Positions 1 to 47,096 of a stretch of DNA of 64,000 nucleotides are shown piece by piece; position 1 is the first letter of the stretch, and every line of letters begins with the position of its first letter. Source of the stretch: Acidimicrobiia bacterium (lineage in GTDB: Bacteria > Actinomycetota > Acidimicrobiia > Spongiisociales > UBA5794); the NCBI GenBank assembly GCA_030431785.1, contig JAUIIM010000001.1, positions 3,323 through 67,322 on the forward strand, written 5' to 3'. The position numbers and the translations under genes are program-made. The notes under the pieces are model-generated. The model was not told the DNA's origin, did no database searches, and saw only the letters and a program-made list of their open reading frames with translations.

Positions 1-463
1 CATGACGTATGACGAAATGGACGACGATCGGTTCGCGAGGGAACCGGGACTGAACCGTGCTCAGATGGAACTGATCTCATCGAGGACTTCCCTCCACAAC
101 CAGTGCTTCTACTGAACACTCAGCCACTCGTGGATGCTCCGTGCGAGCTCCCTCGCATTCGGCTACGACCTCGATGTCCGAGCGGTCGGCGACCGCACCG
201 TCGACCCCGGGGTGCCCGGTGGTGTGGCGATCCTCGACTTCGTCGATGCACTCCTCTTGCGCGATGACGCCGACCACGAGCGACGAGTCCTCCAAGATCA
301 GGTGGGTTCGGAAGGGCTCGTCGATGCAAGCGGTGTGTTTGCGAACTTCCAGATGATGAATCGCCTTGCAGAAGGGACCGGGATCCCGGTACCCGGGGCG
401 GTGATCGACCGGGAAGCCGACCTGATCGAGGCCCTGGGTTTGCATTCGATTCTCAAGAACTGA
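1..463 (+). CDS. AhpD/carboxymuconolactone-decarboxylase (CMD) family protein, 5'-partial; in-frame TGA at 113-115 (candidate selenocysteine codon; alternatively a nonsense/pseudogene)
   Basis: Frame-2 translation across the TGA reads ...AQMELISSRTSLHNQCFY[TGA]TLSHSWMLRASS..., which matches the CMD core ELIxLRVSxxNxCxYCxxxH with the TGA at the second Cys. The C-terminal FANFQMMNRLAEG resembles the family NxWNRLxxA tail. The ORF track only lists the post-TGA part (134..463). A small bulged hairpin at 132-151 lies downstream of the TGA. The antisense ORF 77..445 is judged a shadow. Confidence 0.5.
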
Positions 464-557
464 TCACCCCGCGAACGTGTCCTCGTCGCGGATTGCGTTG
501 GCGTGTCGGCGCTCCCGGGTTTGTCTACGCTGGGGTCGACGTCAGACAAGGAGCATC

Positions 558-2510
558 ATGAGCGAGTCGGGAATCGAGAATCTGCTGCAGGAAGATCGGC
601 TCTTCCCGCCCCTAGCGGATTTCGTAGCGACTGCCAACACCACCCAGGACCACTTCGACGAGGCTGCCGAGGACTACGAGGCGTATTGGATGCGTCAAGC
701 CCGCGAGCGACTCAGCTGGTTCAAGGAGCCGACGGTCGCACTCAACGACGAGAATGCCCCGTTCTACAAGTGGTTCGAGGACGGCGAACTGAACGTCTCC
801 TACAACTGCCTCGATCGACACCTCGATGCAGGGGGCGACAAGGTCGCCTACCACTGGATCGGCGAGCCCGGTGACAAGCGGACGATCACGTACAACGACC
901 TCGCCACCGAAGTGAACAAGTTTGCCAACGGCCTCAAGTCGCTCGGTGTCGAGCGTGGCGATACGGTCGCCATCTACATGGGCATGGTGCCTGAGCTTCC
1001 GATCGCGATGCTTGCATGTGCGCGCATCGGGGCCGCCCATTCCGTCATCTTCGGTGGGTTCTCTGCCGATGCGATCGTCGACCGCGTAGAAGACGCAGGC
1101 TCGAAACTGCTCATCACCTGCGACGGTGCGTGGCGACGCGGAACCATCGTCCCCCTCAAGGAATCCTGTGACGAAGCGATGTCCAGGACCGAGCTGATCG
1201 AGAACTGTGTCGTCGTCCGCAGGACCGAGCAGGACGTTTCGATGCAGGACGGTCGCGATGTCTGGTGGCACGACCTCATCGCCGACCAAGCCGATACGTG
1301 CGCGCCGGAACACATGAACGCCGAGGACCTGCTGTATCTGCTCTACACGTCGGGGACGACGGCCAAGCCGAAGGGCATCATGCACACGACCGGTGGGTAC
1401 CTCACCGGTGTGGCGACGACGCATTCCCAGGTCTTCGACCTCAAGCCGGGCTCCGATGTCTATTGGTGTGCTGCCGACGTGGGTTGGGTCACCGGGCACT
1501 CCTACATCGTGTACGGCCCACTGACGAATCATGCAACCAGCGTGATGTACGAGGGCACACCGGACTTCCCCGACAAGGATCGTTTGTGGTCCATCATCGC
1601 TGAGTACGGGGTCACCATCCTCTACACGGCACCTACGGCGATCCGGGCGTTCATGAAGTGGGGAGTGGAGTACCCGGAACGCCACGACCTCTCATCGTTG
1701 CGTCTCCTGGGAACGGTGGGAGAGCCGATCAACCCCGAAGCGTGGATGTGGTACCACGAGAACATCGGCGGCGGTCGCTGCCCGATCGTCGACACGTGGT
1801 GGCAGACCGAGACCGGTGGCATCATGATCAGCCCGATACCGGGCGTGACCGCCACGAAGCCGGGCTCGGCGACGAAACCGATCCCTGGCATCTTCGCCGA
1901 GGTGGTCGACACCGAAGGCGATCCCGTCCCCCTCGGCGGCGGTGGGTTCCTGACGATCACGAAACCGTGGCCATCGATGCTGAGGTCGATCTACGGCGAC
2001 GACGACCGATATGTATCCACGTACTGGTCGCGGTATCCCGGTCGATACTTCCCCGGCGACGGGGCCAAGTTCGACGAGAACGGCTACATCTGGGTCCTCG
2101 GTCGCGTCGACGATGTCATGAACGTGTCCGGGCACCGCATTTCGACGATGGAGGTCGAGTCGGCGTTGGTGTCACACCCCTCCGTTGCAGAAGCTGCGGT
2201 CGTCGGTGCGACCGATGATCTCACGGGTCAAGCCATCGCAGCGTTCGTCACGCTCCGCGGTGACGCTCAGGGCTCCGACGAGCTCCACGAGGAGCTTCGC
2301 CAACACGTCGCTGACAAGATCGGTGCGATCGCCAAACCCAAGTCGATCATCTTCACCCCCGATCTCCCGAAGACTCGTTCGGGGAAGATCATGCGGCGAC
2401 TGCTCAGGGACATCTCGGATCATCGGGCGCTTGGCGACGTCACGACGCTGGCGAACGCCGATGTCGTACAAGCCATCGCCGATCAGCAGACCGAGTACGA
2501 CGACGACTGA
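558..2510 (+). CDS. acs: acetyl-CoA synthetase (AMP-forming)
   Basis: YTSGTTAKPKG AMP-binding motif and full-length Acs-like sequence. AAGGAG RBS 5-10 nt before ATG 558; the track start at 477 is probably too long. Confidence 0.9.
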   Translation: MSESGIENLLQEDRLFPPLADFVATANTTQDHFDEAAEDYEAYWMRQARERLSWFKEPTVALNDENAPFYKWFEDGELNVSYNCLDRHLDAGGDKVAYHWIGEPGDKRTITYNDLATEVNKFANGLKSLGVERGDTVAIYMGMVPELPIAMLACARIGAAHSVIFGGFSADAIVDRVEDAGSKLLITCDGAWRRGTIVPLKESCDEAMSRTELIENCVVVRRTEQDVSMQDGRDVWWHDLIADQADTCAPEHMNAEDLLYLLYTSGTTAKPKGIMHTTGGYLTGVATTHSQVFDLKPGSDVYWCAADVGWVTGHSYIVYGPLTNHATSVMYEGTPDFPDKDRLWSIIAEYGVTILYTAPTAIRAFMKWGVEYPERHDLSSLRLLGTVGEPINPEAWMWYHENIGGGRCPIVDTWWQTETGGIMISPIPGVTATKPGSATKPIPGIFAEVVDTEGDPVPLGGGGFLTITKPWPSMLRSIYGDDDRYVSTYWSRYPGRYFPGDGAKFDENGYIWVLGRVDDVMNVSGHRISTMEVESALVSHPSVAEAAVVGATDDLTGQAIAAFVTLRGDAQGSDELHEELRQHVADKIGAIAKPKSIIFTPDLPKTRSGKIMRRLLRDISDHRALGDVTTLANADVVQAIADQQTEYDDD

Positions 2511-2522
2511 ACGGGTTCTGGT

Positions 2523-2572
2523 GCAACCCAGAGCTAGGTCGGGGAATATTCACCGTTCTAGCTCTGGGTTGC
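2523..2572. repeat. REP-like palindromic element copy 1 (15-bp arms GCAACCCAGAGCTAG / CTAGCTCTGGGTTGC around a GAATATTC-containing loop)
   Basis: Near-identical to the element at 47047..47096 in inverted orientation. Lies between the acs stop and the S10 peptidase start. Confidence 0.8.
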
Positions 2573-2590
2573 GAAAGGCAGAGGAGTGAG

Positions 2591-4108
2591 ATGACTGACG
2601 AGACGAAGAAGGACGCGACGGCGAAGTCCGAGGAGTCCAAGGACGAGAAGAAGCCTGAACCTCCTCACTTCGAGGATGCGCTGTCGACCACGCAGCACTC
2701 GATCGAGATCGATGGTGATCGGATCGGCTACACCGCAACGGCGGGTCGGATCGTCCTCAAGGAAGACGACGAAACGAAGAAGGCCTCGTTCTTCTTCACC
2801 GCCTACACGAAAGACGATCAGGATCCCGCGGATCGCCCGATCGTCTTTGCGTTCAACGGTGGCCCCGGTTCCTCGTCGGTCTGGCTCCACCTCGGGGTAT
2901 TCGGACCGAAGAAGGTCGTTCTGTCCGACGATGGCAACCTCGAGAAGCTTCCCGGGCAGTTGGAGGACAACCCACAGACGTTGCTGACCCATGCCGATCT
3001 GGTGTTCATCGATCCTGTCTCCACCGGCTACACCCGCGCGATCGAGAAGGACGAGGAACGTTCGTATCACCACTTCGAGAAGGACATCGAGTCCGTGGCT
3101 GCCTTCATCCGGATGTATCTCACCAGGTTCGGACGATGGTCATCACCGAAATTCCTCGGCGGAGAGTCGTACGGCACGACCCGTTCGGTGGGGCTCGCCG
3201 GTCATCTCATGTCGCGATATGGCATCTTCCTCAACGGAGTCATCCTCGTCAGCTCTGTGCTGAGCTTCCAGACCATCGGTCTCGACTCAAGTTCGTACAC
3301 GTTCCACAGAGGCAACGAACTGCCGTACGTCGTGTATCTCCCGTCCTACGCAGCGACCGCGTGGTTCCACAAGGCGCTCGATGAGGACCTCCAATCGAAG
3401 GAGCTGACGGAACTCTTGTCAGAGGTCGAGGAGTTCGCCGAGACGGACTACCTCTTGGCGCTCCAGGCAGGATCACGCCTCGATGCCGATAAGGCCGACG
3501 AGATCGCACAACGGCTTGCCCGCTACACGGGCATCGACAAGGACTTCGTGCAGAAGTCCAACCTCAGGATCGAGAAGTTCCACTTCATGAAGGAACTCCT
3601 GCGCGATGAAGGCTGGACCGTAGGCCGCCTCGACTCACGCTATCGCGGCGTCGACCGGTACACGGTCGGCTCGATGCTTGAGCACGATCCGTCTCTCGAC
3701 GTGTGGATGTCTCCGTACACGTCGATGTTCAACGACTACGTCAGACGTGAGCTCGAATACGAGAGCGACCTCGTCTACGAAATCCTCAACCCGAAGGTGT
3801 GGCCGTGGAACTACGAGAAGTTCCAGAACGCATACGTCGAAGTGTCCGAGACCCTGCGTGACACCATGTCGAAGAATCCGGGGATGCTCGTATACGTCGC
3901 AAGTGGCTACTACGACCTTGCCACCCCGTACTTTGCGACCGAGTACACGCTCGCCCACCTCGGCATTGAGGACGCACTGCGGGACAACATCGAGGTGTCG
4001 TACTTCGATGCCGGTCACATGATGTACGTGCACAAACCGTCCATCGAACGGCTAGGACCCGAGCTGCGGGCGTTCGTCGAGAAGGCGACTGCGTCGACAC
4101 AGGCGTAA
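2591..4108 (+). CDS. S10-family serine carboxypeptidase-like peptidase
   Basis: FAFNGGPGSSS and GESYGT motifs typical of peptidase S10. GAGGAG RBS before ATG 2591. Confidence 0.8.
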   Translation: MTDETKKDATAKSEESKDEKKPEPPHFEDALSTTQHSIEIDGDRIGYTATAGRIVLKEDDETKKASFFFTAYTKDDQDPADRPIVFAFNGGPGSSSVWLHLGVFGPKKVVLSDDGNLEKLPGQLEDNPQTLLTHADLVFIDPVSTGYTRAIEKDEERSYHHFEKDIESVAAFIRMYLTRFGRWSSPKFLGGESYGTTRSVGLAGHLMSRYGIFLNGVILVSSVLSFQTIGLDSSSYTFHRGNELPYVVYLPSYAATAWFHKALDEDLQSKELTELLSEVEEFAETDYLLALQAGSRLDADKADEIAQRLARYTGIDKDFVQKSNLRIEKFHFMKELLRDEGWTVGRLDSRYRGVDRYTVGSMLEHDPSLDVWMSPYTSMFNDYVRRELEYESDLVYEILNPKVWPWNYEKFQNAYVEVSETLRDTMSKNPGMLVYVASGYYDLATPYFATEYTLAHLGIEDALRDNIEVSYFDAGHMMYVHKPSIERLGPELRAFVEKATASTQA

Positions 4109-4192
4109 GTCAGAAGCCGGAACTCAGAAGTCAGACCACGGCGTCGGATCGATGATCGAGGATCGATCAAGGAGCGAGGCGACCGGTCGACT

Positions 4193-5758
4193 TCACTCCG
4201 TTCTCTGTTCTCCGTTGTCCGTTGTCTGCGACCTGAGGTAGCGAGCTACGGCCGCTGCGGCCGTCTTGCCTGAACCAACGGCGGGCGTCATACCCCCACC
4301 ACCGACCCACGCACCGGCGAGGAAGAGGTTCGGGATCGGCGTCCGGGGACTCCGTCGGAATCGCTGATTCACGACCGTCTGCTCCCGGCCGTACAGGGCG
4401 CCCTCGGGCTGGAGCATGTAGCGGGCGTTGGTCAACGGGGTTCCCACGTGGGCCGTGACGATCGAGTCACGGAGACCGGGAATACGCCGCTCGGCACGGG
4501 CGATGAGCTTCTCCGCAGCCTCCTGCTTGACACGCTGATACGACTCCTTCACCCGATAGTTCTCGAGGTCCCCGCCCGTACCCCACGCGTCACGATGATC
4601 CCACGGCGCAAGCGTCGTCAACACGAGCACGGTGCATCCGGCCGGGGCGTTGTCGGGGTCGGTCACGGTGTAGTTCGAGATGATCATGCCAGCGTCCTCG
4701 AAGCGTCCCTCGAGGGCCGCTGTGTAGTCGGCCTCGAGGTCGTACGTCGGCATGTCGAAGTACTCGTGATGGTCCCAACCCTCGGCCGCAAGATCGCGAT
4801 CAACCCCGAGGTGGACGACCAGGCTTGACAATGATGGTGTCTCCGACTGAGCGGTCTCTCCCCAGTCGCCGTCGACCAGGCCGTCGGGCAAGAGCGCGAG
4901 CGTCGATGTCGGGGAGGCATTCGAGACAACCGCACGGGCTCGGACAGTCAGCCCCTTGTTCGTCGTGACGACGACGCCTTCATCGGCCGGTTCGATGCGC
5001 TCTACATCGTTTCGGAAATGGATCTCGCCACCGTGCTCTTCGATGACCTCGGCGATGGCCCAGGTCATCGTTCCCGAACCACCGGTCGGATACCAGGCGC
5101 CCGCTGTCGTATACGAGAGGATGGTCATGGCGAACTGGCCAGCCGAGACCCGGGACGGCGGCAATCCGAGGTACCCCCACAGCGTGGAGACGAGCGCCTT
5201 CGCTTCTGGGGAGTCGAGATACTGGTCGATGAACACCGCCCATGGCACGTTGAACGCGACCGCCATGTCGGGGAAGTCGGTGAGCATCTCAGCGTCGTCC
5301 GGTCGGTGACCGCTTCGCCGGACCTCGGTGTATCGGGCGACGTCGTGCCCGACACGTTGGATCGCAGCGAAGAGCCCCCTGAAACCCGCTCCCTCTCCCG
5401 GCAGAACGTCCGAGGCGACGGCGGCGTATTGGTCGAAATCCGTGGGAATCGCCACCTCGAAGTCCGGGAATCCCACGGTGTAGAACGGATCGAGCTCGTT
5501 GAACTCGATTCGATCCATGATTCCGAGAGATTCGAACATGGGCCGAGCCCAACCGCCCTCTCCCAACCCGTCCAGTGCGTGCAACGCAACCTCGAACCGG
5601 AACTCCTCCTTGCGGAAGAAGTGTGCGTATCCGCCTGGCTTCGAGTGATGCTCGATGACGACGACCTTGTATCCGCGCTCTTGGAGATGCCGTGCGGCGG
5701 AGAGCCCCCCGAGTCCCGCTCCCACGATCACGACATCTGTTTCGATGTCGGGATTCAT
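4193..5758 (-). CDS. FAD/NAD(P)-binding oxidoreductase, phytoene-desaturase (CrtI-like) family
   Basis: N-terminal VVIVGAGLGGLSAARHL dinucleotide-binding motif. The start overlaps the upstream AI-2E gene stop (ATGA). Confidence 0.8.
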   Translation of the reverse strand: MNPDIETDVVIVGAGLGGLSAARHLQERGYKVVVIEHHSKPGGYAHFFRKEEFRFEVALHALDGLGEGGWARPMFESLGIMDRIEFNELDPFYTVGFPDFEVAIPTDFDQYAAVASDVLPGEGAGFRGLFAAIQRVGHDVARYTEVRRSGHRPDDAEMLTDFPDMAVAFNVPWAVFIDQYLDSPEAKALVSTLWGYLGLPPSRVSAGQFAMTILSYTTAGAWYPTGGSGTMTWAIAEVIEEHGGEIHFRNDVERIEPADEGVVVTTNKGLTVRARAVVSNASPTSTLALLPDGLVDGDWGETAQSETPSLSSLVVHLGVDRDLAAEGWDHHEYFDMPTYDLEADYTAALEGRFEDAGMIISNYTVTDPDNAPAGCTVLVLTTLAPWDHRDAWGTGGDLENYRVKESYQRVKQEAAEKLIARAERRIPGLRDSIVTAHVGTPLTNARYMLQPEGALYGREQTVVNQRFRRSPRTPIPNLFLAGAWVGGGGMTPAVGSGKTAAAAVARYLRSQTTDNGEQRTE

Positions 5759-7023
5759 GGATCTCCGACCACTGCGACCGGGGCTTCATCGGGGAACGGA
5801 TCGCGGTCCAAGAGTTTCGCCCACAGGTAGACACCGACGTCTCGCAGCGACGCGATGATCGGCACGGCGAGCAGGGAGCCGAGGAGTCCACCGACCTGGA
5901 AACCGACGATCAGACCGATCAGCACGATCGCCGGCCGGAGCTGAACAGCCGATCCCATGACCTTCGGTGCGATGATGTTCGCCTGCGCTTGGACCACAAC
6001 GACATAGATACCGGCCACGATCAGTGCGAACCAGTAGGACTCCAGATCCGGCCATCGCGTAGACCCCGACAGCAATGCCGCGAGGACACCAGGGATCGCA
6101 GCAAGAATCGGCCCGAACGTAGGGATCATGTTCAGGACGACCATGATCGCGCCCATGAGAAACGCACCGGGAAGTCCGACCACGAACAACACGACGAAGA
6201 CCAGAAAACCTGTGATCAGAGAGTTCACGAGCTGCCCGTACAGGTAGCCGGTCCAGACGCGTTTTTGTTTCCGCATCATGATCCACGCGTCGCGCTCGTA
6301 GCCGGGAGGGAACTGCTCGGCCATCGCACCGTGGAACCGCTCGCTGTCAGCGTTGAGGTACATCGAGATCAAGACCGTCGCAATCGCCGACGTCACCATC
6401 GCGAGGATCACGCCGGCAACCGTACGAACCCCACGGAACGAGTTCGAGACGACGTCAAGCACGACCTGGATGTCGAGCACGCCGGGTTGCTCCGTTCCAC
6501 CCACCGGATTCCCGAGGTCGTCGACCACGGCCGTCATGTCGATCGTGAGACCCCAGATCCGAAGGTGGTTGTTCTCGTCGATCTCCTCCAGGATCCATTC
6601 ACGGCCCTCGTTGACCAGCCCGACCGGGTCGAGCTCGATAACCGATTCCACGATGGAGTTCAGGACCAAGAACCCGAAGCCAAGGGTTCCGAGAAAAACC
6701 ACGAGGTACGCGACGAGCAGGGCGAGGCCACGTGGAATGTGGAGCCGGCGATGGCCAAACCGGATCAGCGGGGCAATCAGGAAGGCGATCAGGGAGGCCA
6801 GTGCAACCACACCGAGGACGTTCCTCACCAGATAAAGGCCGATCAGCGAGACGACGAACAACATGAGAATGACAGCGATCTTCGCTGCGTTGCTCCAAGG
6901 AGGAGAAGGCGGGTATGTGGCCACCTCCCCGGCCCTCTCGACGACGCCACCATCGGTGTCGGACGCTGACTCCGCCGCTGTGTTCTCGTCGGGCGTATCG
7001 CTCATGACGCTACGGTAGAGCAT
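5755..7023 (-). CDS. AI-2E family (PerM/UPF0118) transporter
   Basis: Multi-TM protein with AI-2E-like topology. Alternative start at MSDTPDEN (7005). Confidence 0.75.
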   Translation of the reverse strand: MLYRSVMSDTPDENTAAESASDTDGGVVERAGEVATYPPSPPWSNAAKIAVILMLFVVSLIGLYLVRNVLGVVALASLIAFLIAPLIRFGHRRLHIPRGLALLVAYLVVFLGTLGFGFLVLNSIVESVIELDPVGLVNEGREWILEEIDENNHLRIWGLTIDMTAVVDDLGNPVGGTEQPGVLDIQVVLDVVSNSFRGVRTVAGVILAMVTSAIATVLISMYLNADSERFHGAMAEQFPPGYERDAWIMMRKQKRVWTGYLYGQLVNSLITGFLVFVVLFVVGLPGAFLMGAIMVVLNMIPTFGPILAAIPGVLAALLSGSTRWPDLESYWFALIVAGIYVVVVQAQANIIAPKVMGSAVQLRPAIVLIGLIVGFQVGGLLGSLLAVPIIASLRDVGVYLWAKLLDRDPFPDEAPVAVVGDP

Positions 7024-7043
7024 CGACGATCACAGGGCTACAG

Positions 7044-7514
7044 ATGAACGTCTATCAACGGTTTTGGCGGCGCGCGGGCGGGTGGGCTCCCGTCCGCTGG
7101 CTGCTCTCCAAGATCCTCACACCTCTGGATGTAGCGCTACGGAACACCCGGTTTGCGCCGTCGAAGTTCGGCGTCGACATGCCGCTGTGCTATCTGACGA
7201 CCACGGGACGGCACTCGGGCGAACCACGCGTCGCCCCATTGCTCTTCGCCGACCTCGGGAACGAGGTCATCGGTGTTGCTGCTACGAACTTCGGAACGGA
7301 GTCGCACCCGGGTTGGTCGTACAACCTCGACGCACAGCCCGAAGCCACCGTCGAGATAGACGGGACGAGCCGCAAGGTCGTGGCACGACGAGCAACCGAC
7401 GACGAGGGCGCTGCTGTGATCGAACAGCTGTCACACACATGGCCGGCATACGACACGTACCAGGAGATCGCTCCACGGGACATCCGCATCTATGTGCTTG
7501 CGCCTTCGTCATAG
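7044..7514 (+). CDS. deazaflavin(F420)-dependent nitroreductase family protein (DUF385)
   Basis: MPLCYLTTTGRHSGEPRVAPLLF...HPGWSYNL...VEIDG pattern typical of the actinobacterial Ddn-like family. Confidence 0.8.
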   Translation: MNVYQRFWRRAGGWAPVRWLLSKILTPLDVALRNTRFAPSKFGVDMPLCYLTTTGRHSGEPRVAPLLFADLGNEVIGVAATNFGTESHPGWSYNLDAQPEATVEIDGTSRKVVARRATDDEGAAVIEQLSHTWPAYDTYQEIAPRDIRIYVLAPSS

Positions 7515-7535
7515 GCGAGCCGTACACTCGGAACA

Positions 7536-8255
7536 ATGAGTGACAGCTTGCAAACACCCCCTGAGTACAAGCCTCACCTCGGCGGCACTCGCCAGTACAT
7601 TCGCGACATCATCTTGGGAGTCAACGACGGACTGGTCTCCACCTTCCTCCTCGTCGCCGGTGTCGTCGGCGGTGGCCTCGACACGACCGATGTACTCCTC
7701 ACCGGTATCGCCGGATCAATCGCCGGACTCGTCTCGATGGCGATCGGCGAGTACCTGGCGACGAAATCACAGGACGAGGTCTTCGAGGCCGAGTTGACGC
7801 TCGAACGTGAGCACCTGAAATACCATCGACAGCATGAGCGGGACCAACTTGCCGGCATGTTGAGCGATATGGGGCTCGAGGGGGATGACCTCGAAACCGT
7901 CACCGACCTGATCGACAAGAACGACGAGGCGATGCTGAACATGCAGGGTGCCCTCGAGTTCGGGATCGTCGAGTCCGAGCGGCGGAGTCCCATCAAGGCC
8001 GGTTGGACGTCGGGTCTCCTGTTCCTGGCAGGTTCACTTCCATCGATCATCCCGTTCCTCTATGTGTCTGACGTCCACACAGGGTTCGTCCATGCGGCTG
8101 TCTTCGCAGGAATCGGTCTGTTCGCCGTCGGTGCCGTGAAGACCCTCGCAACCGGCAAGAACCTGTTCCTGTCGGGCGCCGAGAACCTGACACTCGGGTT
8201 CATCGGAGCAGCCGTCTCGTACTTCATCGGAACACTGTTCGAGGCGCGGATCTAG
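7536..8255 (+). CDS. VIT1/CCC1 family iron/manganese transporter
   Basis: GVNDGLVSTF motif plus two TM clusters separated by a cytoplasmic loop. Confidence 0.85.
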   Translation: MSDSLQTPPEYKPHLGGTRQYIRDIILGVNDGLVSTFLLVAGVVGGGLDTTDVLLTGIAGSIAGLVSMAIGEYLATKSQDEVFEAELTLEREHLKYHRQHERDQLAGMLSDMGLEGDDLETVTDLIDKNDEAMLNMQGALEFGIVESERRSPIKAGWTSGLLFLAGSLPSIIPFLYVSDVHTGFVHAAVFAGIGLFAVGAVKTLATGKNLFLSGAENLTLGFIGAAVSYFIGTLFEARI

Positions 8256-8287
8256 GGGCTGAACCCGCCGCCATTCCTGGTATGTGG

Positions 8288-8323
8288 ATTGTCGGAGCGC
8301 AGCGACCGTCCGATAGGGAGGGC
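8288..8323. repeat. single TGTCGGA-family octamer (GATTGTCGGA) plus related inverted copy CGACCGTCCGATAG
   Basis: Same motif as the tandem arrays at 11939, 15726 and 40683. Convergent intergenic region between the VIT gene and cobO. Confidence 0.4.
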
Positions 8324-8362
8324 GCAGCCCGATCGATCCGCCGGCCGGGCGAAGCTGAACGG

Positions 8363-8893
8363 CTAGAAATCGAGGCCTTTGCGGGCGGCGATCCCCTTGT
8401 CGAAGGCGTGCTTGACCTTGCGCATCTCGGTGACCGTGTCCGCCGCCTCGACGACCGCATCGGACGCATCTCGGCCGGTGATGATGACGTTCACACCCTC
8501 GGGCCGACCGGTGATCGACTCGACGACGTCCTGCTCATCGATCCATCCGAACGTCACCGGATAGGTCGCTTCGTCGAGGATGATCAGGTCGTAGTCACCC
8601 GAAGCAATTGAGTCCTTGGCCTGTCGCCATGCATCCGCAGCCGCCTGCTCCGTCGCCTCCATGTCGTCGGATTCCCAGGTGAACCCGTCCCCGCCGGTCA
8701 CCCACTCGACTCCGAGCTGGTCTGCCATCTTCTTCTCGCCCGTTTGCCATTTGTCGGACTTGATGAACTGGATCACCTTTACGTTCCAGCCCCGTGCCAC
8801 GGCCCTCAGCATCACACCGAAGGCTGATGAAGACTTCCCTTTGCCGTCGCCGGTGTTGACGATGAACAGGTCTCGTCGTGGTTTGTCGGTCAT
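8363..8893 (-). CDS. cobO: cob(I)yrinic acid a,c-diamide adenosyltransferase
   Basis: GDGKGKSS P-loop and CobA/CobO-like length. Last gene of the riboswitch-controlled B12 transport operon. Confidence 0.85.
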   Translation of the reverse strand: MTDKPRRDLFIVNTGDGKGKSSSAFGVMLRAVARGWNVKVIQFIKSDKWQTGEKKMADQLGVEWVTGGDGFTWESDDMEATEQAAADAWRQAKDSIASGDYDLIILDEATYPVTFGWIDEQDVVESITGRPEGVNVIITGRDASDAVVEAADTVTEMRKVKHAFDKGIAARKGLDF

Positions 8894-9672
8894 TGCGGAT
8901 TCCCTTCGGTTCGCAGGGATACGACGACGAGGCTTCCCTCGACTTCGATGACCCTGATCGTAGGTTCGAAGACATCGCCCAGTGTGGACTCTGTGAGCAC
9001 CCCCTCCGGAACCCCGGTCGCCACCACGTCGCCTTCATCGATGAGGGTGAGCTCGTCACAGAACTGGGCGGCTGCAGTGAGGTCATGGATCGCCGACAGC
9101 ACCGTGACGCCCCGCTCCTCCTGGATCCGCGCAATCAGCTCGAGCACCTCATGTTGCGCCGCTACATCGAGCGATGCCGTCGCCTCGTCGAGAACGACGA
9201 CCCGCGGCTCCTGGGCGAGAACACGTGCCAGAGATGCTCGTTGGGTCTCCCCTCCCGACAGTGACGCCACGTCGCGATTGACGAATTCGGTGAGCCCGAG
9301 GGTCGCAAGCGAGTCCCAGACGATGGCGATGTCCTGTGAACCCTCAGCGGCCAGAGGTCCCAAGTGTGGTGTCCGTCCGAGGAGGACGAAATCGAACACG
9401 GACATCCCTACCGGGAACACCGGTCGTTGTGGGACATAGGCAAGACGGAGGGCCATCGCTTTCCGGTCGTCCGGCGCATTTGCATCCCCGACCCGGATAC
9501 TGCCGTCGTAGTCGACTGCCCCGACGATCGCTTTCAGCAGGGTGGACTTCCCCGCACCGTTCGGACCGACGAGCCCCATCCACGTCCCCTCCGCGACGTC
9601 GATCGAGACATCGGTGAGGACATTCGTTCCGTTGTAGGAGACCGACACGCTCTCGACTGCGATTGCGGTCAT
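8890..9672 (-). CDS. ABC transporter ATP-binding protein (FecE/BtuD-like)
   Basis: Walker A GPNGAGKST, LSGGE signature and Walker B VVLDE. Real start is the ATG at 9672 (MTAIAVESV); the track ORF 8890..10515 is an over-extension through the permease gene. ATGA overlaps on both sides. Confidence 0.85.
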   Translation of the reverse strand: MTAIAVESVSVSYNGTNVLTDVSIDVAEGTWMGLVGPNGAGKSTLLKAIVGAVDYDGSIRVGDANAPDDRKAMALRLAYVPQRPVFPVGMSVFDFVLLGRTPHLGPLAAEGSQDIAIVWDSLATLGLTEFVNRDVASLSGGETQRASLARVLAQEPRVVVLDEATASLDVAAQHEVLELIARIQEERGVTVLSAIHDLTAAAQFCDELTLIDEGDVVATGVPEGVLTESTLGDVFEPTIRVIEVEGSLVVVSLRTEGNPQ

Positions 9673-10718
9673 GTCGCCACTCCCTTGCTCCGTCGCAACA
9701 CGAGCGCAAAGAACGGGGCACCGATGAAGGCGGTGACGACACCGATCGGTATCTCGGCAGGAGCCTGGATCGACCGGGCGAGGATGTCCGCGAACACGAG
9801 GAAAGCGCCACCGAGGAGGATCGAGAGAGGGACGATCACCCGGTACGAAGCCGAGGTCATGAGGCGGACTGTGTGGGGAATGATGATCCCCACGAAGCCG
9901 ATGAGGCCACTCACCGAAACGACGGCCGCTGTCCCGAGCGTGGCGAACCCGATGAGGATGAGCCGTATGCGAGCCGGCTTGACGCCGAGGGTGGAGGCTT
10001 CCGTGTCCCCGACCGACATGACATCGAGAAGCCGGCGGGAGGCAACGATGACGATCATCGACACGATCACGTAGGGAAGCACGAGCCGTACCTCTCCCCA
10101 TCCGGCCGTTGACAGGCTGCCGAGGATCCATCCATACACCTCCCGGATGGAGTCCGCTTCCTTCTGCTGGAGGTAGGTCTGCGCTGCTGTCAGGAACGCC
10201 GCTACGGCGACGCCGGCGAGGATCAGCGTCACGGCGGTCCTCCCGGCGCGCACGGTGTATCCGAGGACGTAGGCAAGCACCACCCCGAGGACGGCTCCCG
10301 CGAACGCAGCGACCGGGACGGGATCGATGAGCCAGTCCAGGTCCGGGCCGTAGGCGATGGCGATGGTCGCTCCAAGACCCGCACCTGCGCCGGCGCCGAG
10401 GAGGTAGGGATCGGCCAGCGGGTTGCGGAAGACCCCCTGGTAGGCCGCTCCGGAGACCGAGAGCATGGACCCGACGATCACTCCAAGAATGACCCGCGGC
10501 ATCCGGATCTGCCACACGATTGCATCGTCGCGTTCGGACAACCCGGACTCGACGTCGATGAACGGCAGCCGATCCAGCGCGGAGCGCATGATGTCAAGTG
10601 GAGCGATCGAAACGGCGCCGATCATGGCCCCCACGACGACTGCGGTCATCAGGAGCGCGGCCGCTCCACCGATCCACCACCAAGGCAGGCGGGATCCAGC
10701 GGGGCGACCGGCGTTCAT
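9669..10718 (-). CDS. FecCD-family ABC permease (BtuC-like)
   Basis: About 9-10 TM segments with FecCD-type conservation; translationally coupled to the ATPase. Confidence 0.85.
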   Translation of the reverse strand: MNAGRPAGSRLPWWWIGGAAALLMTAVVVGAMIGAVSIAPLDIMRSALDRLPFIDVESGLSERDDAIVWQIRMPRVILGVIVGSMLSVSGAAYQGVFRNPLADPYLLGAGAGAGLGATIAIAYGPDLDWLIDPVPVAAFAGAVLGVVLAYVLGYTVRAGRTAVTLILAGVAVAAFLTAAQTYLQQKEADSIREVYGWILGSLSTAGWGEVRLVLPYVIVSMIVIVASRRLLDVMSVGDTEASTLGVKPARIRLILIGFATLGTAAVVSVSGLIGFVGIIIPHTVRLMTSASYRVIVPLSILLGGAFLVFADILARSIQAPAEIPIGVVTAFIGAPFFALVLRRSKGVAT

Positions 10719-11704
10719 CAGGCGTTCGCTCCGAGGACGGTCTGCACCGCTTCGGTGACGGCCACGAGGAGGTCGACGATCCGCGGGCTCCAGCGAGAAG
10801 CGATGTCGTCATCGAGCTCGACGACGCCCCCGTCGGTGACTGCGGCGATCGTCTCCCAGCCGGGTCGGGCTGCGACGGTCTCGGCGTTCTGCCCGCAGCA
10901 AATCGTGTCCGCGAGGAGGATGAGATCGGGATTGGTGTCGATGATGTACTCGGCGGACAACTGCGGATAGCCGAACCCGTCGGGATCCGGTGCAGCGTCT
11001 GCGATGTTGACGAGCCCGGTTCCGGCGAGCAGCTGACCGATGAACGAACTTGACGTCGCCGTGAAGTATGTGTCGTCGAGCTCGTAGTAGTACGACAGGC
11101 CATCCGCCGAGTCCGGAGTGTCGTCGTAGAGGGCATCGATGGTCAACTGGGTCTCTGCCACGACGGCTGCAGCCTCGGCGATGTGGCCGGTCGCTGCTCC
11201 CGTCTGCTCCCACTGGATGTAGGCATCCTCGATACTGAAGGCGGTGCCGTGCAGGATGGTCGGGATCCCCAACGCTTCGAGTCCGGCGACGAGTTCGCCC
11301 GGATCGAACGAGAGGAACACGAGGTCCGGGTCATAGTCGGCGATCGCTTCCACGTTGGGGGTGAACGCGGACAGATCGGTGATCGGGGCCTCTTCGGGAT
11401 AGTTGGAGAAGCTGTCGACGGCGACGACCTGATCGCCCGCACCGATGGCATACAGCACTTCGGTCGAGGTGGCGGACATCGAGACGATGCGTTCTGGTCT
11501 CGACTCGATGGTCACTTCACCGGCCGCCGTGCTGATCGTGATCGGGAATCCGTCGTCGGCGGTGGTGGTGGTGGTCGTCTCGGCGACGCCCTCGGTCGTG
11601 GTGGTTGCCTCGACCATCGTGGTGGTCGTGTCACCGCCGTCGGATGACGAACAGGCAGCAGCGAACAGTGCCATCGCAGCGACGAGTAGGAACAAGCGTT
11701 TCAT
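10718..11704 (-). CDS. periplasmic-type substrate-binding lipoprotein (BtuF/cobalamin or siderophore class)
   Basis: Lipoprotein signal MKRLFLLVAAMALFAAACSS and cluster-A SBP-like sequence. Immediately downstream of the cobalamin riboswitch. Confidence 0.8.
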   Translation of the reverse strand: MKRLFLLVAAMALFAAACSSSDGGDTTTTMVEATTTTEGVAETTTTTTADDGFPITISTAAGEVTIESRPERIVSMSATSTEVLYAIGAGDQVVAVDSFSNYPEEAPITDLSAFTPNVEAIADYDPDLVFLSFDPGELVAGLEALGIPTILHGTAFSIEDAYIQWEQTGAATGHIAEAAAVVAETQLTIDALYDDTPDSADGLSYYYELDDTYFTATSSSFIGQLLAGTGLVNIADAAPDPDGFGYPQLSAEYIIDTNPDLILLADTICCGQNAETVAARPGWETIAAVTDGGVVELDDDIASRWSPRIVDLLVAVTEAVQTVLGANA

Positions 11705-11705
11705 G

Positions 11706-11935
11706 GGTTGTCTCCCTTCGGTGGAGGAGCCAACCGTTGCGAGTCGTGACCCCTCCTCCGAAGGTCGCCTCGCCTGCCGGTGTGGAGGCGACCTGGCTTA
11801 CCTCGTTGCGAGGATCACAGTTGCGGGACAGCGCCGGTTTCTCACCGGACTTCGCTCCAAAACGGCACCCGGGTCATCCCGGTACGCACGTTCAAGCATA
11901 CAGACAGTTGCCGACATCACGTCTCAGACGGACTG
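11706..11935 (-). promoter_or_regulatory. cobalamin (B12) riboswitch
   Basis: Minus-strand sequence GGUGCC...GAAGUCCGGUGAGAAACCGGCGCUGUCCCGCAACUGUGA (B12 box) followed by GGUAAGCCAGG and an expression platform where CCUCCACC can pair with the GGGAGA RBS. Ends directly at the btuF-like ATG. Confidence 0.85.
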
Positions 11936-11938
11936 GTA

Positions 11939-11968
11939 TGTCGGACTTTCGAATTGTCGGATTGTCAG
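11939..11968. repeat. degenerate TGTCGGA-family tandem array (TGTCGGAC..TTGTCGGATTGTCAG)
   Basis: Read directly. Divergent intergenic region 5' of the riboswitch. Confidence 0.6.
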
Positions 11969-12398
11969 TGCTAACCCGACATCTCGAGATTCTTGTCACC
12001 GATATCGTCCGGTCATGCGTTGTACCTACTGAGACCAACTTCGTGAGAGGTGAGGTGTGACGATTGCAGAACACACGGGCGAGCATGTCCCGATACGGGC
12101 GACGGCACGTGGCAAGGAGGACTTCTCGGTCTTCTACGAGCGCGAGGGGACGCAATCCAGGGTTGCGTCCCCTTCTCGTCTTAAACCTGATGGTGCCTAC
12201 CTCTACTCCAGCCCCTCCAGGCTCGCGGGCTCGCAGTCCCTCCTGGCGACAGCCGGTCTGCTCGACCGCCCGTCGCCTGTCCTCCCGCAAGGGGAGGACG
12301 CAAGTCAAGAGCGAATAGTGACGCCCTGCGTCCTCCCCCACTGTCCTCTGCTCGGTTCCGTGTCTTGCCAACCGGGATTCCGTTGTACCGTTCCTGTA

Positions 12399-12593
12399 TG
12401 AAGAAGATCGTCACTTTGTCGCTCGCCGTTGCTGCGGTCGTGCTCGGGGTGTTCATCGCCAAGCGTGACACCGTCGAACCCACACCTGACCACGGTGGGA
12501 CGTGGGAGCCACACGAGCCGTCCGAGCGATGAGAGTCGCGGTCGACACCAGAACCGAGGTCGGCAACCGAATGGTGCGGACGTTGCTCGCTGA
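12399..12593 (+). CDS. possible small membrane protein / leader ORF (MKKIVTLSLAVAAVVLGVFIAKRD...)
   Basis: ATG followed by a strongly hydrophobic signal/TM-like segment; the remainder is Arg-rich and overlaps the next gene out of frame. Not in the ORF track. Confidence 0.2.
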
Positions 12594-13245
12594 GGGCGAC
12601 GTTGCCTTCGTCGGAATCCTCAACGAAGCCGTGCCCTCCCGCAAGCGGTCGGGTTCGATCGATGACGTGTCCGGGTTCGACGTCCTGGTCACCGACGGTG
12701 AGGCGGACACGACGGATCTCCTCGCACAGGCCTCCGTGGCAGGGTGTCCCCTCGTCGTCTGGCCCGAACTCGCACGAATCGACTCGTCCGCAACTGTCCC
12801 GGTCGTCCACGACGCCAACGTGTCCGGCGCCCTCACCGCGGCGCTCGCGACACACCCAGCCACCGAGGTCAGCGTCGACGACACGCTGACCGTCGCGTGG
12901 ACGGAGCCAGGCAAGCCGCTGAAGCGGGGTCATCCACTGCCGTTTCCCGATCCGATCGGCGTGCTGTGGGGGAAGAAGAGAGACGACGGCCGATACGTAG
13001 CGTTCCGTGACGACGAGTGGGCCGGTGCAGTGATCGACATCGATGGAGCGAGTGGTCGCCGAATCGTCGGGGTCGCCGACCACGGGCCGTATCTCGAAGC
13101 CCTCATCCTTGCCGGTGTCACGATCGCAGCGGCTCGCGGCCACTACGCGACCGGAACCCATCCAGCGTCCTCTCAAGCCGAGCATCTCCTCCCCATCTTC
13201 GACGAACTTGAGACGGAGATCGCCGTCTGGCGTTCGGGCATCTGA
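12502..13245 (+). CDS. hypothetical protein (Rossmann-like N-terminus MRVAVDTRTEVG)
   Basis: Balanced composition and high GC3; a more likely ATG start is at 12529. The stop overlaps the next gene start (ATGA-type coupling). The antisense ORF 12181..13185 is rejected. Confidence 0.6.
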   Translation: MGATRAVRAMRVAVDTRTEVGNRMVRTLLAEGDVAFVGILNEAVPSRKRSGSIDDVSGFDVLVTDGEADTTDLLAQASVAGCPLVVWPELARIDSSATVPVVHDANVSGALTAALATHPATEVSVDDTLTVAWTEPGKPLKRGHPLPFPDPIGVLWGKKRDDGRYVAFRDDEWAGAVIDIDGASGRRIVGVADHGPYLEALILAGVTIAAARGHYATGTHPASSQAEHLLPIFDELETEIAVWRSGI

Positions 13246-15215: not shown

Positions 15216-15661
15216 CCGAGCGTTTGTTCGACAGTTTGCTCGTCGGAGATCGTCGACGTGGACCCGTTCGTGGGAACGTGCACGACGGGTCGTGGGCGCT
15301 GCGGCTCCGTCTCCACCGTTTCTTCGAGCGTGATGAATTCGATCCCGCCGACGACGTCAGACACCATGTTGTAGAGGATCGCAACGAGCGTGAGCAGCGC
15401 CGTCGCACCGATCACCCAGAGGATCGCAAGCATCAGCACGACCCGGAAGTACAAGTCACCATCAGGGGAGAACGCGATGGTGAGTCGACCGAGCATGTCG
15501 GCAAAGTCGTCCGGGATGCCGCGCTGGACCGCGATCGACCATGCGACCCAGATGCCGAGGGTCCAGATGAGTCCGATGACAAGGTTGATCAGGAACCCGG
15601 CCTTCAGGACGGTCCACGGATCCACCTTGCGAATGATGCGACGCACACGACGAATCGCCAT
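15212..15661 (-). CDS. DUF3566-like conserved membrane protein (Rv0007-like, downstream of gyrA)
   Basis: Start taken at MAIRRVRRIIRK (ATG 15661) with a GGAAGGAG RBS; two TM segments; conserved position after gyrA in Actinobacteria. Confidence 0.75.
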   Translation of the reverse strand: MAIRRVRRIIRKVDPWTVLKAGFLINLVIGLIWTLGIWVAWSIAVQRGIPDDFADMLGRLTIAFSPDGDLYFRVVLMLAILWVIGATALLTLVAILYNMVSDVVGGIEFITLEETVETEPQRPRPVVHVPTNGSTSTISDEQTVEQTLG

Positions 15662-15725
15662 GAGTGCTCCTTCCGACCGGAAGCCTACCGCTGTGCGCCA
15701 TATGCGCACGGAAGGTGGCGAGACC

Positions 15726-15757: not shown

Positions 15758-15781
15758 GGACCGAAGGGCCGGGCCGTCGGC

Positions 15782-18241: not shown

Positions 18242-20206
<1,965 letters not shown>

Positions 20207-24362: not shown

Positions 24363-24404
24363 CTTGTAATCCTCCGTGCCTCTTTGTCTTCAACAAGCCA
24401 AGCA

Positions 24405-24690
24405 ATTCACCTGTCCACACACCTATCCACAGGATGTGGAGAAGATGCGCCCACGGGGCTCGTTCGGTCGAGCCCGTGAGCTCAGCTCCGTGGGAAGAGC
24501 GGGTGGCGAACCCGTCAAGAGCGACGGCGAGTGTATGCACCGTTTGCGGAGCACTTCAAGAGTGGCAAAACCGCCGCAAGACCGTCCTGTGGATAGCGAC
24601 CGAATCGGCGGAGAACCCTTACGCCCCTTGACTTGTACGCCGAGCGAGATACCCCTCGGGCGGCTGTTGTGCACAGCGATTTCCACAAAA
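24405..24690. promoter_or_regulatory. DnaA-box cluster upstream of dnaA / rpmH promoter region
   Basis: TGTCCACAC, CTATCCACA, TGTGGATAG and TTTCCACAA read directly. Confidence 0.6.
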
Positions 24691-24834
24691 CCGCCTTGAA
24701 CGGAATTTCGCGACCGCTCCCGACTTTTCGCGGACCGGATCACTACTGACGGTTTGATGGACTCGGGACCTAGACTGCTCCCGACCCGTCATACGGCGGG
24801 TTCACCGCGTCCCGCATCTCAGGGGTACCTCATC

Positions 24835-47012: not shown

Positions 47013-47046
47013 CCGGCAGAACGCCCCCACCGGCTCGCTGTTTTCT

Positions 47047-47096
47047 GCAACCCAGAGCTAGAACGGTGAATATTCCCCAACCTAGCTCTGGGTTGC
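47047..47096. repeat. REP-like palindromic element copy 2 (inverted relative to copy 1)
   Basis: gcaacccagagctag-aacggtgaatattccccaac-ctagctctgggttgc; one mismatch versus the reverse complement of 2523..2572. Confidence 0.8.

What the first reader, a model, noticed from the sequence alone, without database searches (positions are those of the whole stretch)
2523..2572. REP-like 50-nt palindromic element present twice in inverted orientation
The elements at 2523-2572 and 47047-47096 are about 98 percent identical as reverse complements. Each has 15-bp arms GCAACCCAGAGCTAG/CTAGCTCTGGGTTGC, a 20-nt centre carrying its own GAATATTC mini-palindrome, and a following GAAA. Both sit right after stop codons (acs; hlyIII/yciI convergent pair). 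Conservation of the loop as well as the stem argues for a defined repeated element (REP/MITE-like, bidirectional terminator or small structured RNA) rather than chance hairpins.
Basis: seen in the sequence. Interest (0 to 1): 0.55.

Follow-up and report, generated by a model that had tools for sequence, protein, structure and literature searches.

The report
Two-copy palindromic repeat mirroring the replication origin
A 50-base hairpin-forming DNA repeat sits just after two unrelated genes in an uncultured Acidimicrobiia bacterium; it was inserted recently and looks like an ordinary small palindromic repeat, except that its two copies mirror each other across the chromosome's replication origin.

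Summary
Window 2523-2572 and the reverse complement of 47047-47096 match at 49 of 50 bases. Each has exact 15-nt arms and a 6+GAATATTC+6 centre, and they are the two strongest local hairpins in the window (RNA dG about -35 kcal/mol, z about -9).

The host is an uncultured Acidimicrobiia MAG. The same two insertions appear in contigs from three further sequencing runs. The element is missing from the orthologous, syntenic spacers of the nearest relatives (acs 90% and 86% aa identity, hlyIII 84%). It was also not found in 110 kb of relatives' DNA, GTDB species representatives, JGI metagenomes, viral contigs, plasmids, phages or Rfam. So it is a young, lineage-specific insertion at two unrelated 3' spacers.

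It behaves like a REP- or MITE-type miniature palindromic repeat. It fails strict REP membership: there is no GTAG or CGTC tag and no RAYT gene in the window. It is not a canonical terminator, because no U-tract follows it. Genome-wide copy number could not be measured.

One unexpected point: the window holds oriC. The two copies lie on opposite replichores, in the same orientation relative to fork movement, and their midpoint (24809.5) falls in the dnaA-rpmH spacer. The post hoc chance of that is about 0.01.

Interest is modest.

The parts
2523..2572 (+). Copy 1 of the 50-nt palindromic element (forward form: 15-nt arm, 20-nt centre GTCGGGGAATATTCACCGTT, 15-nt arm)
   Evidence: It is partly present at the start of the independent Logan contig L023.
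2573..2581 (+). Possible 3' tail of copy 1 (GAAAGGCAG). It overlaps the approach to the RBS of the downstream peptidase gene, and its membership in the element is uncertain.
   Evidence: 5 of 9 positions match the copy 2 tail without gaps.
47047..47096 (-). Copy 2 of the element (forward form on the - strand; centre GTTGGGGAATATTCACCGTT)
   Evidence: An identical copy is at the same locus in Logan contigs L001 and L020.
47038..47046 (-). Possible 3' tail of copy 2 (AGAAAACAG on the - strand); uncertain
477..2510 (+). acs (acetyl-CoA synthetase), the gene upstream of copy 1. It is head-on to replication, and its stop codon is 12 nt before the element.
   Evidence: Pfam; homologues, (the database gene call is 650 aa, so the true start is probably near 558)
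2591..4108 (+). S10-type serine carboxypeptidase gene. Its start codon is 18 nt after copy 1. The acs->S10 order is syntenic in relatives.
   Evidence: L022; L024
46575..47012 (+). YciI-like gene, convergent with hlyIII. Its stop codon is 34 nt from copy 2.
   Evidence: a homologous gene lies opposite hlyIII in L021
47098..47754 (-). hlyIII-family gene, head-on to replication. Its stop codon is 1 nt before the forward form of copy 2.
24363..24834 (.). dnaA-rpmH intergenic region with a cluster of DnaA-box-like sequences (probable oriC/dnaA promoter). It contains the midpoint (24809.5) of the two copies.

Best explanation
The element is a young, lineage-specific miniature palindromic dispersed repeat. 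It is a non-autonomous REP/MITE-like sequence of about 50 nt, possibly up to 60 nt with a short 3' tail. It has been copied into two unrelated 3' intergenic spacers of one Acidimicrobiia lineage.

Shown:
- The two copies are near-identical.
- Both spacers are syntenic with those of relatives, which lack the element.
- The element is stably present at both loci in several samples.

Inferred, mechanism of spread: it moves as a hairpin-forming single strand during replication, mobilised in trans by an enzyme encoded elsewhere in the genome. An HUH/Y1-type or other transposase is the model. This would explain why the copies on the two replichores are inverted relative to each other but identical relative to fork direction.

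Inferred, consequence for the cell:
- Both copies are read in the same sense as the upstream gene (acs, hlyIII), beginning 12 nt and 1 nt after the stop codon.
- Each mRNA would therefore end in, or pass through, a hairpin of about -35 kcal/mol.
- Such a hairpin is expected to block 3'->5' exonucleases and may pause RNA polymerase.
- Because it lies within 15 nt of the stop codon, it may also hinder terminating ribosomes, as E. coli REPs do.

I regard any dedicated cellular function as unproven and secondary to its nature as a selfish or neutral insertion.
For: - Identity and structure: 49/50 identity with exact 15-nt arms. CM scores are 95-100 bits against 11 or less elsewhere. Folding z-scores are about -9.
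- Insertion at conserved sites, acs locus: acs->S10 peptidase is syntenic in L022 (acs 90% aa; spacer 52 nt, no hairpin) and in L024 (86%; spacer 14 nt). The spacer here is 80 nt.
- Insertion at conserved sites, hlyIII locus: the convergent hlyIII/YciI pair in L021 (84%) has a 35-nt spacer without the element, against 85 nt here. More distant relatives have 10-37 nt spacers.
- Real, not an assembly artefact: the element appears in Logan contigs from SRR24075716, SRR24075713 and SRR24075712. These contigs break exactly where 31-mers become shared between the two copies.
- Foreign-looking composition: CTAG is depleted in the window (24 observed, 65 expected), yet 4 of the 24 lie in the two copies. 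GAATATTC occurs 3 times against 0.28 expected.
- Orientation: both forward forms lie on the leading-strand template and are in sense with head-on genes (for origin and gene map). Y1/HUH elements insert into the lagging-strand template and so acquire replichore-dependent orientation (PMC6006769).
- The single C/T difference is C-G -> U.G in the forward-strand fold (cost 0.7 kcal/mol) but an A.C mismatch in the reverse strand (cost 3.2 kcal/mol).
- The location matches REP statistics: downstream of ORFs, between unidirectional and convergent genes (PMC3733652). REPs within 15 nt of a stop codon stall ribosomes (Liang et al. 2015, as cited in PMC12306157).
Against: - Only two copies are known. 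No diverged copy was found in the 64-kb window with filters off or in 110 kb + 91 kb of other loci.
- Nothing turned up in GTDB representatives (11 chance-level hits, none with the 20-nt centre), JGI metagenomes (one chance hit in AT-rich DNA), viral contigs, or plasmids and phages.
- A multi-copy family is therefore not demonstrated.
- There is no GTAG/CGTC tag and no clear target-site duplication.
- No transposase or Y1_Tnp domain was found in the 47 predicted proteins of the window that I scanned.
- The orientation argument rests on n=2, which is 50% by chance, and it is confounded with the orientation of the upstream genes.
- No expression data exist.
- The mirror symmetry about oriC is not predicted by simple transposition.
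Confidence: 0.45

Rival explanations
1. A one-off, replication-associated duplication. A pre-existing 3' hairpin at one locus was copied once to the mirror position on the other replichore. The route would be strand switching or mis-repair between the two sister forks, which are equidistant from oriC at the same moment. This produces an inverted copy at equal distance from the origin. There is no family and no transposase.
For: - The midpoint of the copies (24809.5) lies within the 472-nt dnaA-rpmH spacer that carries the DnaA-box-like cluster.
- The chance of this is 0.011 for two random sites, 0.004 for intergenic sites only, and 0.048 for a broader origin definition.
- Inverted orientation is exactly what fork-to-fork exchange predicts.
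- Origin-symmetric rearrangements are the dominant structural variation in bacteria and are attributed to events at simultaneously positioned forks (PMC9584773, citing Tillier & Collins 2000).
- Only two copies were found anywhere.
- The Logan graph indicates the T variant is single-locus.
Against: - The symmetry was noticed post hoc, and n=1 pair.
- Known symmetric events are reciprocal inversions or translocations. A non-reciprocal copy of only 50 nt with no flanking homology has, to my knowledge, no documented precedent.
- Both junctions are syntenic with relatives, so no inversion accompanied it.
- Neither locus in relatives carries a hairpin that could have been the donor.
- The exact replication start point is unknown. 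Actinobacterial oriC is often in the dnaA-dnaN spacer, and that would give distances of 20.3 and 24.2 kb.
Confidence: 0.2
2. A functional pair of origin-flanking DNA sites. The 50-bp palindromes, as cruciforms or as binding sites for a dimeric protein recognising the arms and the GAATATTC core, mark or insulate an origin-proximal domain of about 44.5 kb. Alternatively they act as polar barriers facing the origin.
For: - Placement is symmetric on both sides of oriC, with both copies pointing toward it.
- The centre is conserved as well as the arms.
- The core is AT-rich in a 62% GC genome.
Against: - The element is absent from every relative examined even though the origin region is syntenic, so it cannot be a conserved chromosome-organisation device.
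- The true parS sites are elsewhere, at 27474-27489 and 27544-27559.
- The conserved centre is equally explained by the youth of the duplication.
- No candidate binding protein is known.
Confidence: 0.07
3. Two independently evolved or selected transcription terminators or regulatory operators (a shared regulator site) that happen to be alike.
For: - Both sit at 3' ends of genes.
- The hairpin is strong.
- Canonical hairpin-plus-U-tract terminators are not enriched in this genome (7 found against 8.7 expected in 20 kb), so U-less hairpins might serve.
Against: - 49/50 identity over stem and loop cannot arise by convergence.
- No U-tract follows on any strand.
- From my own knowledge, not checked here: actinobacterial RNA polymerase has been reported to need a U-tract for efficient intrinsic termination.
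- The flanking genes (acs/peptidase versus hlyIII/YciI) share no obvious regulon.
- 50 bp is far longer than typical operators.
Confidence: 0.03

Closest known systems
REP / REPIN elements (repetitive extragenic palindromes mobilised by RAYT/TnpA-REP Y1 transposases)
   Same: - It is a short extragenic palindrome within the 21-65 nt size range.
- It lies downstream of ORFs between unidirectional and convergent genes.
- It forms a strong hairpin in ssDNA and RNA.
- Its orientation is compatible with ssDNA, lagging-strand-coupled insertion (PMC3733652, PMC6006769).
   Different: - There is no GTAG or CGTC tag at either end.
- The palindrome is nearly perfect rather than imperfect.
- Only two copies are known, against tens to thousands for REPs.
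- No RAYT gene is in the window.
- It is restricted to one species-level lineage and is not vertically persistent.
- According to PMC3733652, GTAG repeats were reported in Proteobacteria, Cyanobacteria, Chloroflexi and the PVC group; the word Actinobacteria does not occur in that paper.
MITEs such as Neisseria Correia/NEMIS elements (own knowledge)
   Same: - It has terminal inverted repeats (here the 15-nt arms).
- It inserts into intergenic DNA next to genes.
- It shows presence/absence differences between related genomes.
- It is transcribed into hairpin RNA that can affect mRNA processing and stability.
   Different: - At 50 nt it is at or below the lower size limit for MITEs.
- No target-site duplication can be demonstrated; only the self-complementary terminal GC could be one.
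- No parent IS is known.
E. coli REPs placed within 15 nt of a stop codon (Liang, Rudd & Deutscher 2015, as summarised in PMC12306157)
   Same: The hairpin begins 12 nt (acs) and 1 nt (hlyIII) after the stop codon. That is inside the distance at which REPs stall terminating ribosomes and lower expression of the upstream gene.
   Different: There is no sequence relationship. The effect is untested here, and the organism and ribosome-rescue context differ.
Repeats at breakpoints of origin-symmetric (replication-associated) inversions (PMC9584773, PMC11602124)
   Same: It is an inverted repeat pair on opposite replichores, roughly equidistant from the origin.
   Different: Those repeats are usually IS elements, rRNA operons or longer homologies, and they are recognised because an inversion occurred. 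Here the repeat is 50 nt, and both junctions are collinear with relatives, so no inversion is seen.
Intrinsic (Rho-independent) terminators
   Same: It is a GC-containing stem-loop directly downstream of stop codons, at a convergent gene pair in one case.
   Different: There is no U-tract. The 20-nt centre exceeds the usual 3-8 nt loop. The identical sequence is reused at two loci.

Membership tests
REP (GTAG/CGTC-tagged, RAYT-associated) | Short (about 20-65 nt) extragenic palindrome forming a stem-loop | tested here: met
   50 nt with a 15-bp perfect stem. Both copies are intergenic.
REP (GTAG/CGTC-tagged, RAYT-associated) | Conserved GTAG or CGTC tetranucleotide at one end (the guide/cleavage tag) | tested here: not met
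   Read directly. The ends are ..GGT|GCAAC and GTTGC|GAAA for copy 1, and ..AAC|GCAAC and GTTGC|AGAA for copy 2. Neither tetranucleotide is at or next to either end on either strand. The definition is from PMC3733652.
REP (GTAG/CGTC-tagged, RAYT-associated) | High copy number dispersed over the genome | not testable with these tools
   There are two copies in 64 kb. The rest of the 146,797-nt contig and of the MAG could not be retrieved. There were no copies in GTDB representatives, JGI metagenomes or viral contigs.
REP (GTAG/CGTC-tagged, RAYT-associated) | Cognate RAYT (Y1 HUH transposase) gene in the genome, typically flanked by REPs | tested here: inconclusive
   Pfam scans of 47 predicted proteins of the window found no Y1_Tnp or any transposase domain. 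The remainder of the genome was not seen.
REP (GTAG/CGTC-tagged, RAYT-associated) | Preferential location 3' of ORFs, between unidirectional or convergent genes | tested here: met
   Copy 1 lies between the co-directional acs and S10 peptidase genes. Copy 2 lies between the convergent YciI and hlyIII genes.
MITE | Terminal inverted repeats | tested here: met
   The arms are 15 nt and exact. This is trivially satisfied by any palindrome.
MITE | Target-site duplication flanking the element | tested here: inconclusive
   The flanks share no direct repeat: TCTGGT/GAAAGG for copy 1 and TCTAAC/AGAAAA for copy 2. Only the terminal GC...GC, which is self-complementary, could be a 2-bp duplication. Empty sites in relatives are too diverged to align.
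MITE | Presence/absence at orthologous sites in related genomes | tested here: met
   It is absent from the syntenic spacers in L022, L024, L021 and L013-L018.
MITE | Parent autonomous IS with the same termini | not testable with these tools
There was no match in plasmid or phage collections.
Intrinsic terminator | Stable stem-loop immediately downstream of a gene | tested here: met
   dG is about -35 kcal/mol. The element starts 12 nt and 1 nt after stop codons.
Intrinsic terminator | U-rich tract directly 3' of the stem | tested here: not met
   The sequences following the stem are GAAAGGCAG (copy 1, + strand), ACCAGAACC (copy 1, - strand), GTTAGACGA (copy 2, + strand) and AGAAAACAG (copy 2, - strand). 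The terminator scan did not flag either site.
Any Rfam RNA family | Score at or above the family gathering threshold | tested here: not met
   There were 0 hits in the whole window at gathering thresholds. A local E-value search gave only sub-threshold noise: mir-2066 at 20 bits against a threshold of 100, and ar35 at 20 against 45.
Integron attC site | R''/R' core sites (RYYYAAC ... GTTRRRY) with extrahelical bases | tested here: not met
   Read directly: the 3' end is GTTGCGA in copy 1 and GTTGCAG in copy 2. The fifth base is C, not a purine. The stem is perfect with no bulges. The consensus is from my own knowledge.
parS (ParB binding site) | Match to the 16-bp TGTTNCACGTGAAACA palindrome | tested here: not met
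   The only parS matches are at 27474-27489 (perfect) and 27544-27559 (one mismatch), not at the element.

The most novel reading that the evidence does not exclude
The pair is not a transposon family at all. It is either the product of a single copy event between the two sister replication forks, or a functional device. In the first case a 50-nt hairpin was duplicated onto the mirror position of the opposite replichore, 22.26 kb from the origin on each side. That would be a non-reciprocal, small-scale counterpart of origin-symmetric inversions. In the second case the two origin-facing palindromes bracket a 44.5-kb origin domain. Either would make this a natural example of replication-geometry-directed sequence duplication or of a new origin-flanking element.
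Probability: 0.12. Interest if true: 0.7.

Novelty: new member of a known kind. Interest (0 to 1): 0.3.

Why it matters
If it is what it most likely is, this adds a small, untagged palindromic repeat family from an uncultured Acidimicrobiia lineage. I found no paper that mentions Acidimicrobiia together with palindromic intergenic repeats. It is useful mainly as a strain marker and as a caution for assemblers, because contigs from three runs break inside it.

It would matter more if the origin symmetry is not a coincidence. It would then be a sequence-level footprint of an exchange between sister replication forks, or a new origin-flanking element. Either possibility can be tested simply by counting copies in the existing reads.

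Tried and rejected
1. Stems-only pattern scan of GTDB representatives (CCAGAGCTAG N14-26 CTAGCTCTGG). It gave 11 hits in unrelated phyla, none with a 20-nt centre. CM scores were 14-24 bits against 95-100 for true copies, and about 14 hits are expected by chance. Rejected as unrelated.
2. Arm-plus-centre pattern in JGI metagenomes. The single hit is in AT-rich, eukaryote-like DNA and is a chance match.
3. The viral contig scan found nothing.
4. Plasmid and phage blastn found nothing.
5. Retrieving the source contig through exact-protein look-ups failed. The acs and YciI products are not indexed, and only short Logan contigs were returned. Genome-wide copy number therefore stayed out of reach.
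6. I searched the protein database with the open-frame translations of the element, hoping to catch spurious ORFs that run through other copies. 25 candidates shared short words with the query, and none scored E<=10. This is uninformative, because even a perfect 16-aa match may not reach that threshold.
7. A covariance-model search for diverged copies found none. The weak hit at 12124-12185 (E 0.82) is a different hairpin that shares only GGGTTGCG.
8. An inversion of the 44.5-kb origin segment with endpoints at the repeats is rejected relative to the available relatives. Both junctions are collinear with L022/L024 and L021/L013-L018.
9. attC, parS, CRISPR repeat and sRNA readings are rejected (see the membership tests). 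No sigma-70-like promoter was found in positions 1-20000.
10. A second promoter/terminator scan failed because the coordinate range was too long, and I did not repeat it.

Full report
**1. The observation**

Direct reading confirms the finding.
- Positions 2523-2572 read GCAACCCAGAGCTAG-GTCGGGGAATATTCACCGTT-CTAGCTCTGGGTTGC.
- The reverse complement of 47047-47096 is identical except for C->T at element position 18, so identity is 49/50.
- The 15-nt arm occurs four times in the window, with no further match at up to 3 mismatches.
- The pair is the longest inverted repeat in the window. Each copy is itself a near-perfect 25/25 palindrome, and these are the two longest local palindromes in 64 kb.
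- The centre is symmetric: 6 nt, then GAATATTC, then 6 nt.
- As RNA the 50-mers fold at -35.3 and -34.6 kcal/mol (forward strand) and -34.0 and -30.8 (reverse strand), with z-scores of -8.7 to -9.0. As DNA they fold at -16 to -21.
- The 'GAAA' tail is offset by one base between the copies and is not clearly part of the element.

**2. Host and context**

Homologues of the flanking proteins are almost all from uncultured Acidimicrobiia/Actinomycetota MAGs. A 100%-identical acs product sits on an NCBI contig of 146,797 nt that I could not retrieve.

Copy 1 lies in the 80-nt spacer between acs (stop at 2508-2510) and a co-directional S10-type peptidase gene (ATG at 2591). Copy 2 lies in the 85-nt spacer between the convergent YciI and hlyIII genes. 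It is 1 nt from the hlyIII stop and 34 nt from the YciI stop. In both cases the 'forward' form of the element is in sense with the gene that ends just before it.

**3. It is real and stable in a natural population**

- Logan contig L001 (SRR24075716) carries copy 2 intact at the same locus.
- L020 (SRR24075713) runs from hlyIII into the element and stops at element position 48.
- L023 (SRR24075712) starts at element position 21 and continues into the peptidase gene.
- These break points are exactly where 31-mers become shared between the two copies (positions 19-50 are identical). That fits a repeat of at least two copies. It also suggests the T variant exists at one locus only.

**4. It is absent from relatives**

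- acs locus: the closest relatives keep the acs->S10 order but have spacers of 52 nt (L022, acs 90% aa) and 14 nt (L024, 86%), with no hairpin.
- hlyIII locus: L021 (84%) keeps the convergent hlyIII/YciI pair with a 35-nt spacer and no element. More distant relatives have a cupin gene 10-37 nt from hlyIII.
- A covariance model built from the copies finds nothing else in the window with filters off. It also finds nothing in 110 kb of relatives' loci.
- Pattern scans found only chance-level matches in GTDB species representatives and JGI metagenomes. They found nothing in viral contigs, plasmids or phages.
- Rfam has no family for it.
- The element is therefore a recent, lineage-specific insertion at two unrelated sites in an otherwise syntenic backbone.
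- Its composition also looks alien. CTAG is strongly avoided in the window (24 observed, 65 expected), yet each copy carries two.

**5. What the surroundings revealed**

Pfam annotation shows that the window is the chromosomal origin region:
- gyrA, gyrB, recF, dnaN and dnaA lie on the - strand, ending at 24362.
- rpmH (about 24835-24969), rnpA, yidD, yidC, jag and parA lie on the + strand.
- Two parS sites are at 27474-27489 and 27544-27559.
- DnaA-box-like sequences cluster in and next to the 472-nt dnaA-rpmH spacer.

The two copies therefore lie on opposite replichores. Both forward forms sit on the leading-strand template, and both follow genes transcribed head-on toward the origin.

The midpoint of the pair, 24809.5, falls inside the dnaA-rpmH spacer. 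For two random sites this has probability 0.011. It is 0.004 if sites are restricted to intergenic DNA, and 0.048 if the origin is defined broadly from the end of dnaN to rpmH. The symmetry was noticed after the fact and concerns a single pair, so I treat it as a lead and not as a result.

**6. Mechanism**

My best-supported reading (confidence 0.45) is a miniature palindromic dispersed repeat of the REP/MITE kind.
- It would be mobilised in trans, possibly as a single-stranded hairpin at the replication fork.
- That route gives Y1/HUH-mobilised elements a replichore-dependent orientation (PMC6006769), which is compatible with the inverted pair seen here.
- Its likely effects are at the RNA level: a 3' hairpin of about -35 kcal/mol on the acs and hlyIII transcripts.
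- The one difference between the copies preserves pairing on the forward strand (C-G to U.G, cost 0.7 kcal/mol). On the reverse strand it creates an A.C mismatch (cost 3.2 kcal/mol). This is a weak hint that the forward-strand fold is the one that matters.
- The hairpin starts 12 nt and 1 nt after stop codons. That is within the 15-nt limit at which E. coli REPs stall terminating ribosomes (Liang et al. 2015, as summarised in PMC12306157).
- It is not a canonical intrinsic terminator, because no U-tract follows it on any strand. Such terminators are not enriched in this genome anyway.

**7. Membership**

The element meets the structural and positional features of REPs (PMC3733652). It fails the defining GTAG/CGTC tag. 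No RAYT or any transposase domain occurs among the 47 window proteins I scanned. High copy number could not be tested.

As a MITE it has inverted termini and presence/absence polymorphism. It has no demonstrable target-site duplication and no known parent IS.

I therefore describe it as working like a REP/MITE, but I do not file it as a member of the tagged REP superfamilies.

**8. Rival readings**

- A single replication-associated copy between sister forks (0.2) would explain the mirror symmetry, the inversion and the two-copy count. It borrows from the accepted explanation of origin-symmetric inversions (PMC9584773). It has no precedent at this scale, and no donor hairpin is seen in relatives.
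- A functional origin-flanking pair (0.07) is contradicted by the element's absence from relatives that have the same origin region.
- Convergent terminators or operators (0.03) are excluded by the sequence identity.

**9. Verdict**

The element is a genuine, recently inserted 50-nt palindromic repeat. It is ordinary in kind but belongs to no described family, and its placement about oriC is intriguing but unproven. The decisive test is cheap: measure the element's k-mer depth, or count its copies, in the existing reads and MAG.

Noticed in passing
window 15782-29117: The window contains the chromosomal replication origin region. gyrA, gyrB, recF, dnaN and dnaA are on the - strand. rpmH (about 24835-24969), rnpA, yidD, yidC, jag and parA are on the + strand. 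DnaA-box-like sequences cluster at 24305-24675. A perfect parS is at 27474-27489 and a one-mismatch parS at 27544-27559.
   Followed up: partly
window 15727-15760, 27567-27602, 27610-27675, 40549-40586, 40651-40677, 40683-40720, 46159-46195, 48716-48839, 54075-54106: There are many short tandem arrays with 7- or 8-nt units in intergenic DNA. Several form reverse-complement pairs at distant sites. GATTGTCG x4 at 15.7 kb pairs with TCCGACAA x5 at 40.7 kb (94%). GACGAAGG x4.5 at 27.6 kb pairs with a roughly 15-unit TCCCTTCT array upstream of ppc at 48.7 kb (87%). AGCCAGG x9 at 27.6 kb pairs with GCTGCTG x5 at 40.5 kb (81%). Their function is unknown.
   Followed up: no
window, whole: The tetranucleotide CTAG is strongly under-represented (24 observed against 65 +/- 7 expected from shuffles). 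Several of the remaining sites (e.g. 8252, 8363, 15212, 15782, 20280, 24966, 34181, 57957) coincide with the ends of ORFs listed.
   Followed up: partly
window 27438-27471: A perfect 15-bp GC-rich hairpin (CAGAAGGGGCCCCGG / CCGGGGCCCCTTCTG, 4-nt loop) lies directly after jag and 3 nt before the perfect parS site. Other unique 3'-end hairpins are at 40509-40547, 26601-26636 and 12145-12173.
   Followed up: no
window 45802-46217: The spacer between argH and the cupin gene is variable. It holds a 34-nt tandem duplication (46066-46131, 1.9 copies, 93%) and an ATCTGACA x4 array. Gene content between argH and hlyIII differs among relatives, and YciI is present only here and in L021.
   Followed up: no
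window 51614-53356 and 62412-64000: There is a predicted surface protein with three SLH domains plus leucine-rich repeats (51614-53356, - strand). Near the window end is a 342-345-nt periodic DNA repeat (62766-63829) inside a large ORF with no Pfam match.
   Followed up: no
window 32474-32481: This is the third occurrence of GAATATTC in the window (0.28 expected). Its context, TCGGAATATTCCCACC, resembles the element centre GGTGAATATTCCCC. It has no flanking arms and is probably a coincidence.
   Followed up: partly
window 40535-41875 (-): This long ORF has no Pfam hit and is probably spurious. It overlaps the place where argC is expected on the + strand, by synteny with L013, L017 and L018.
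   Followed up: no
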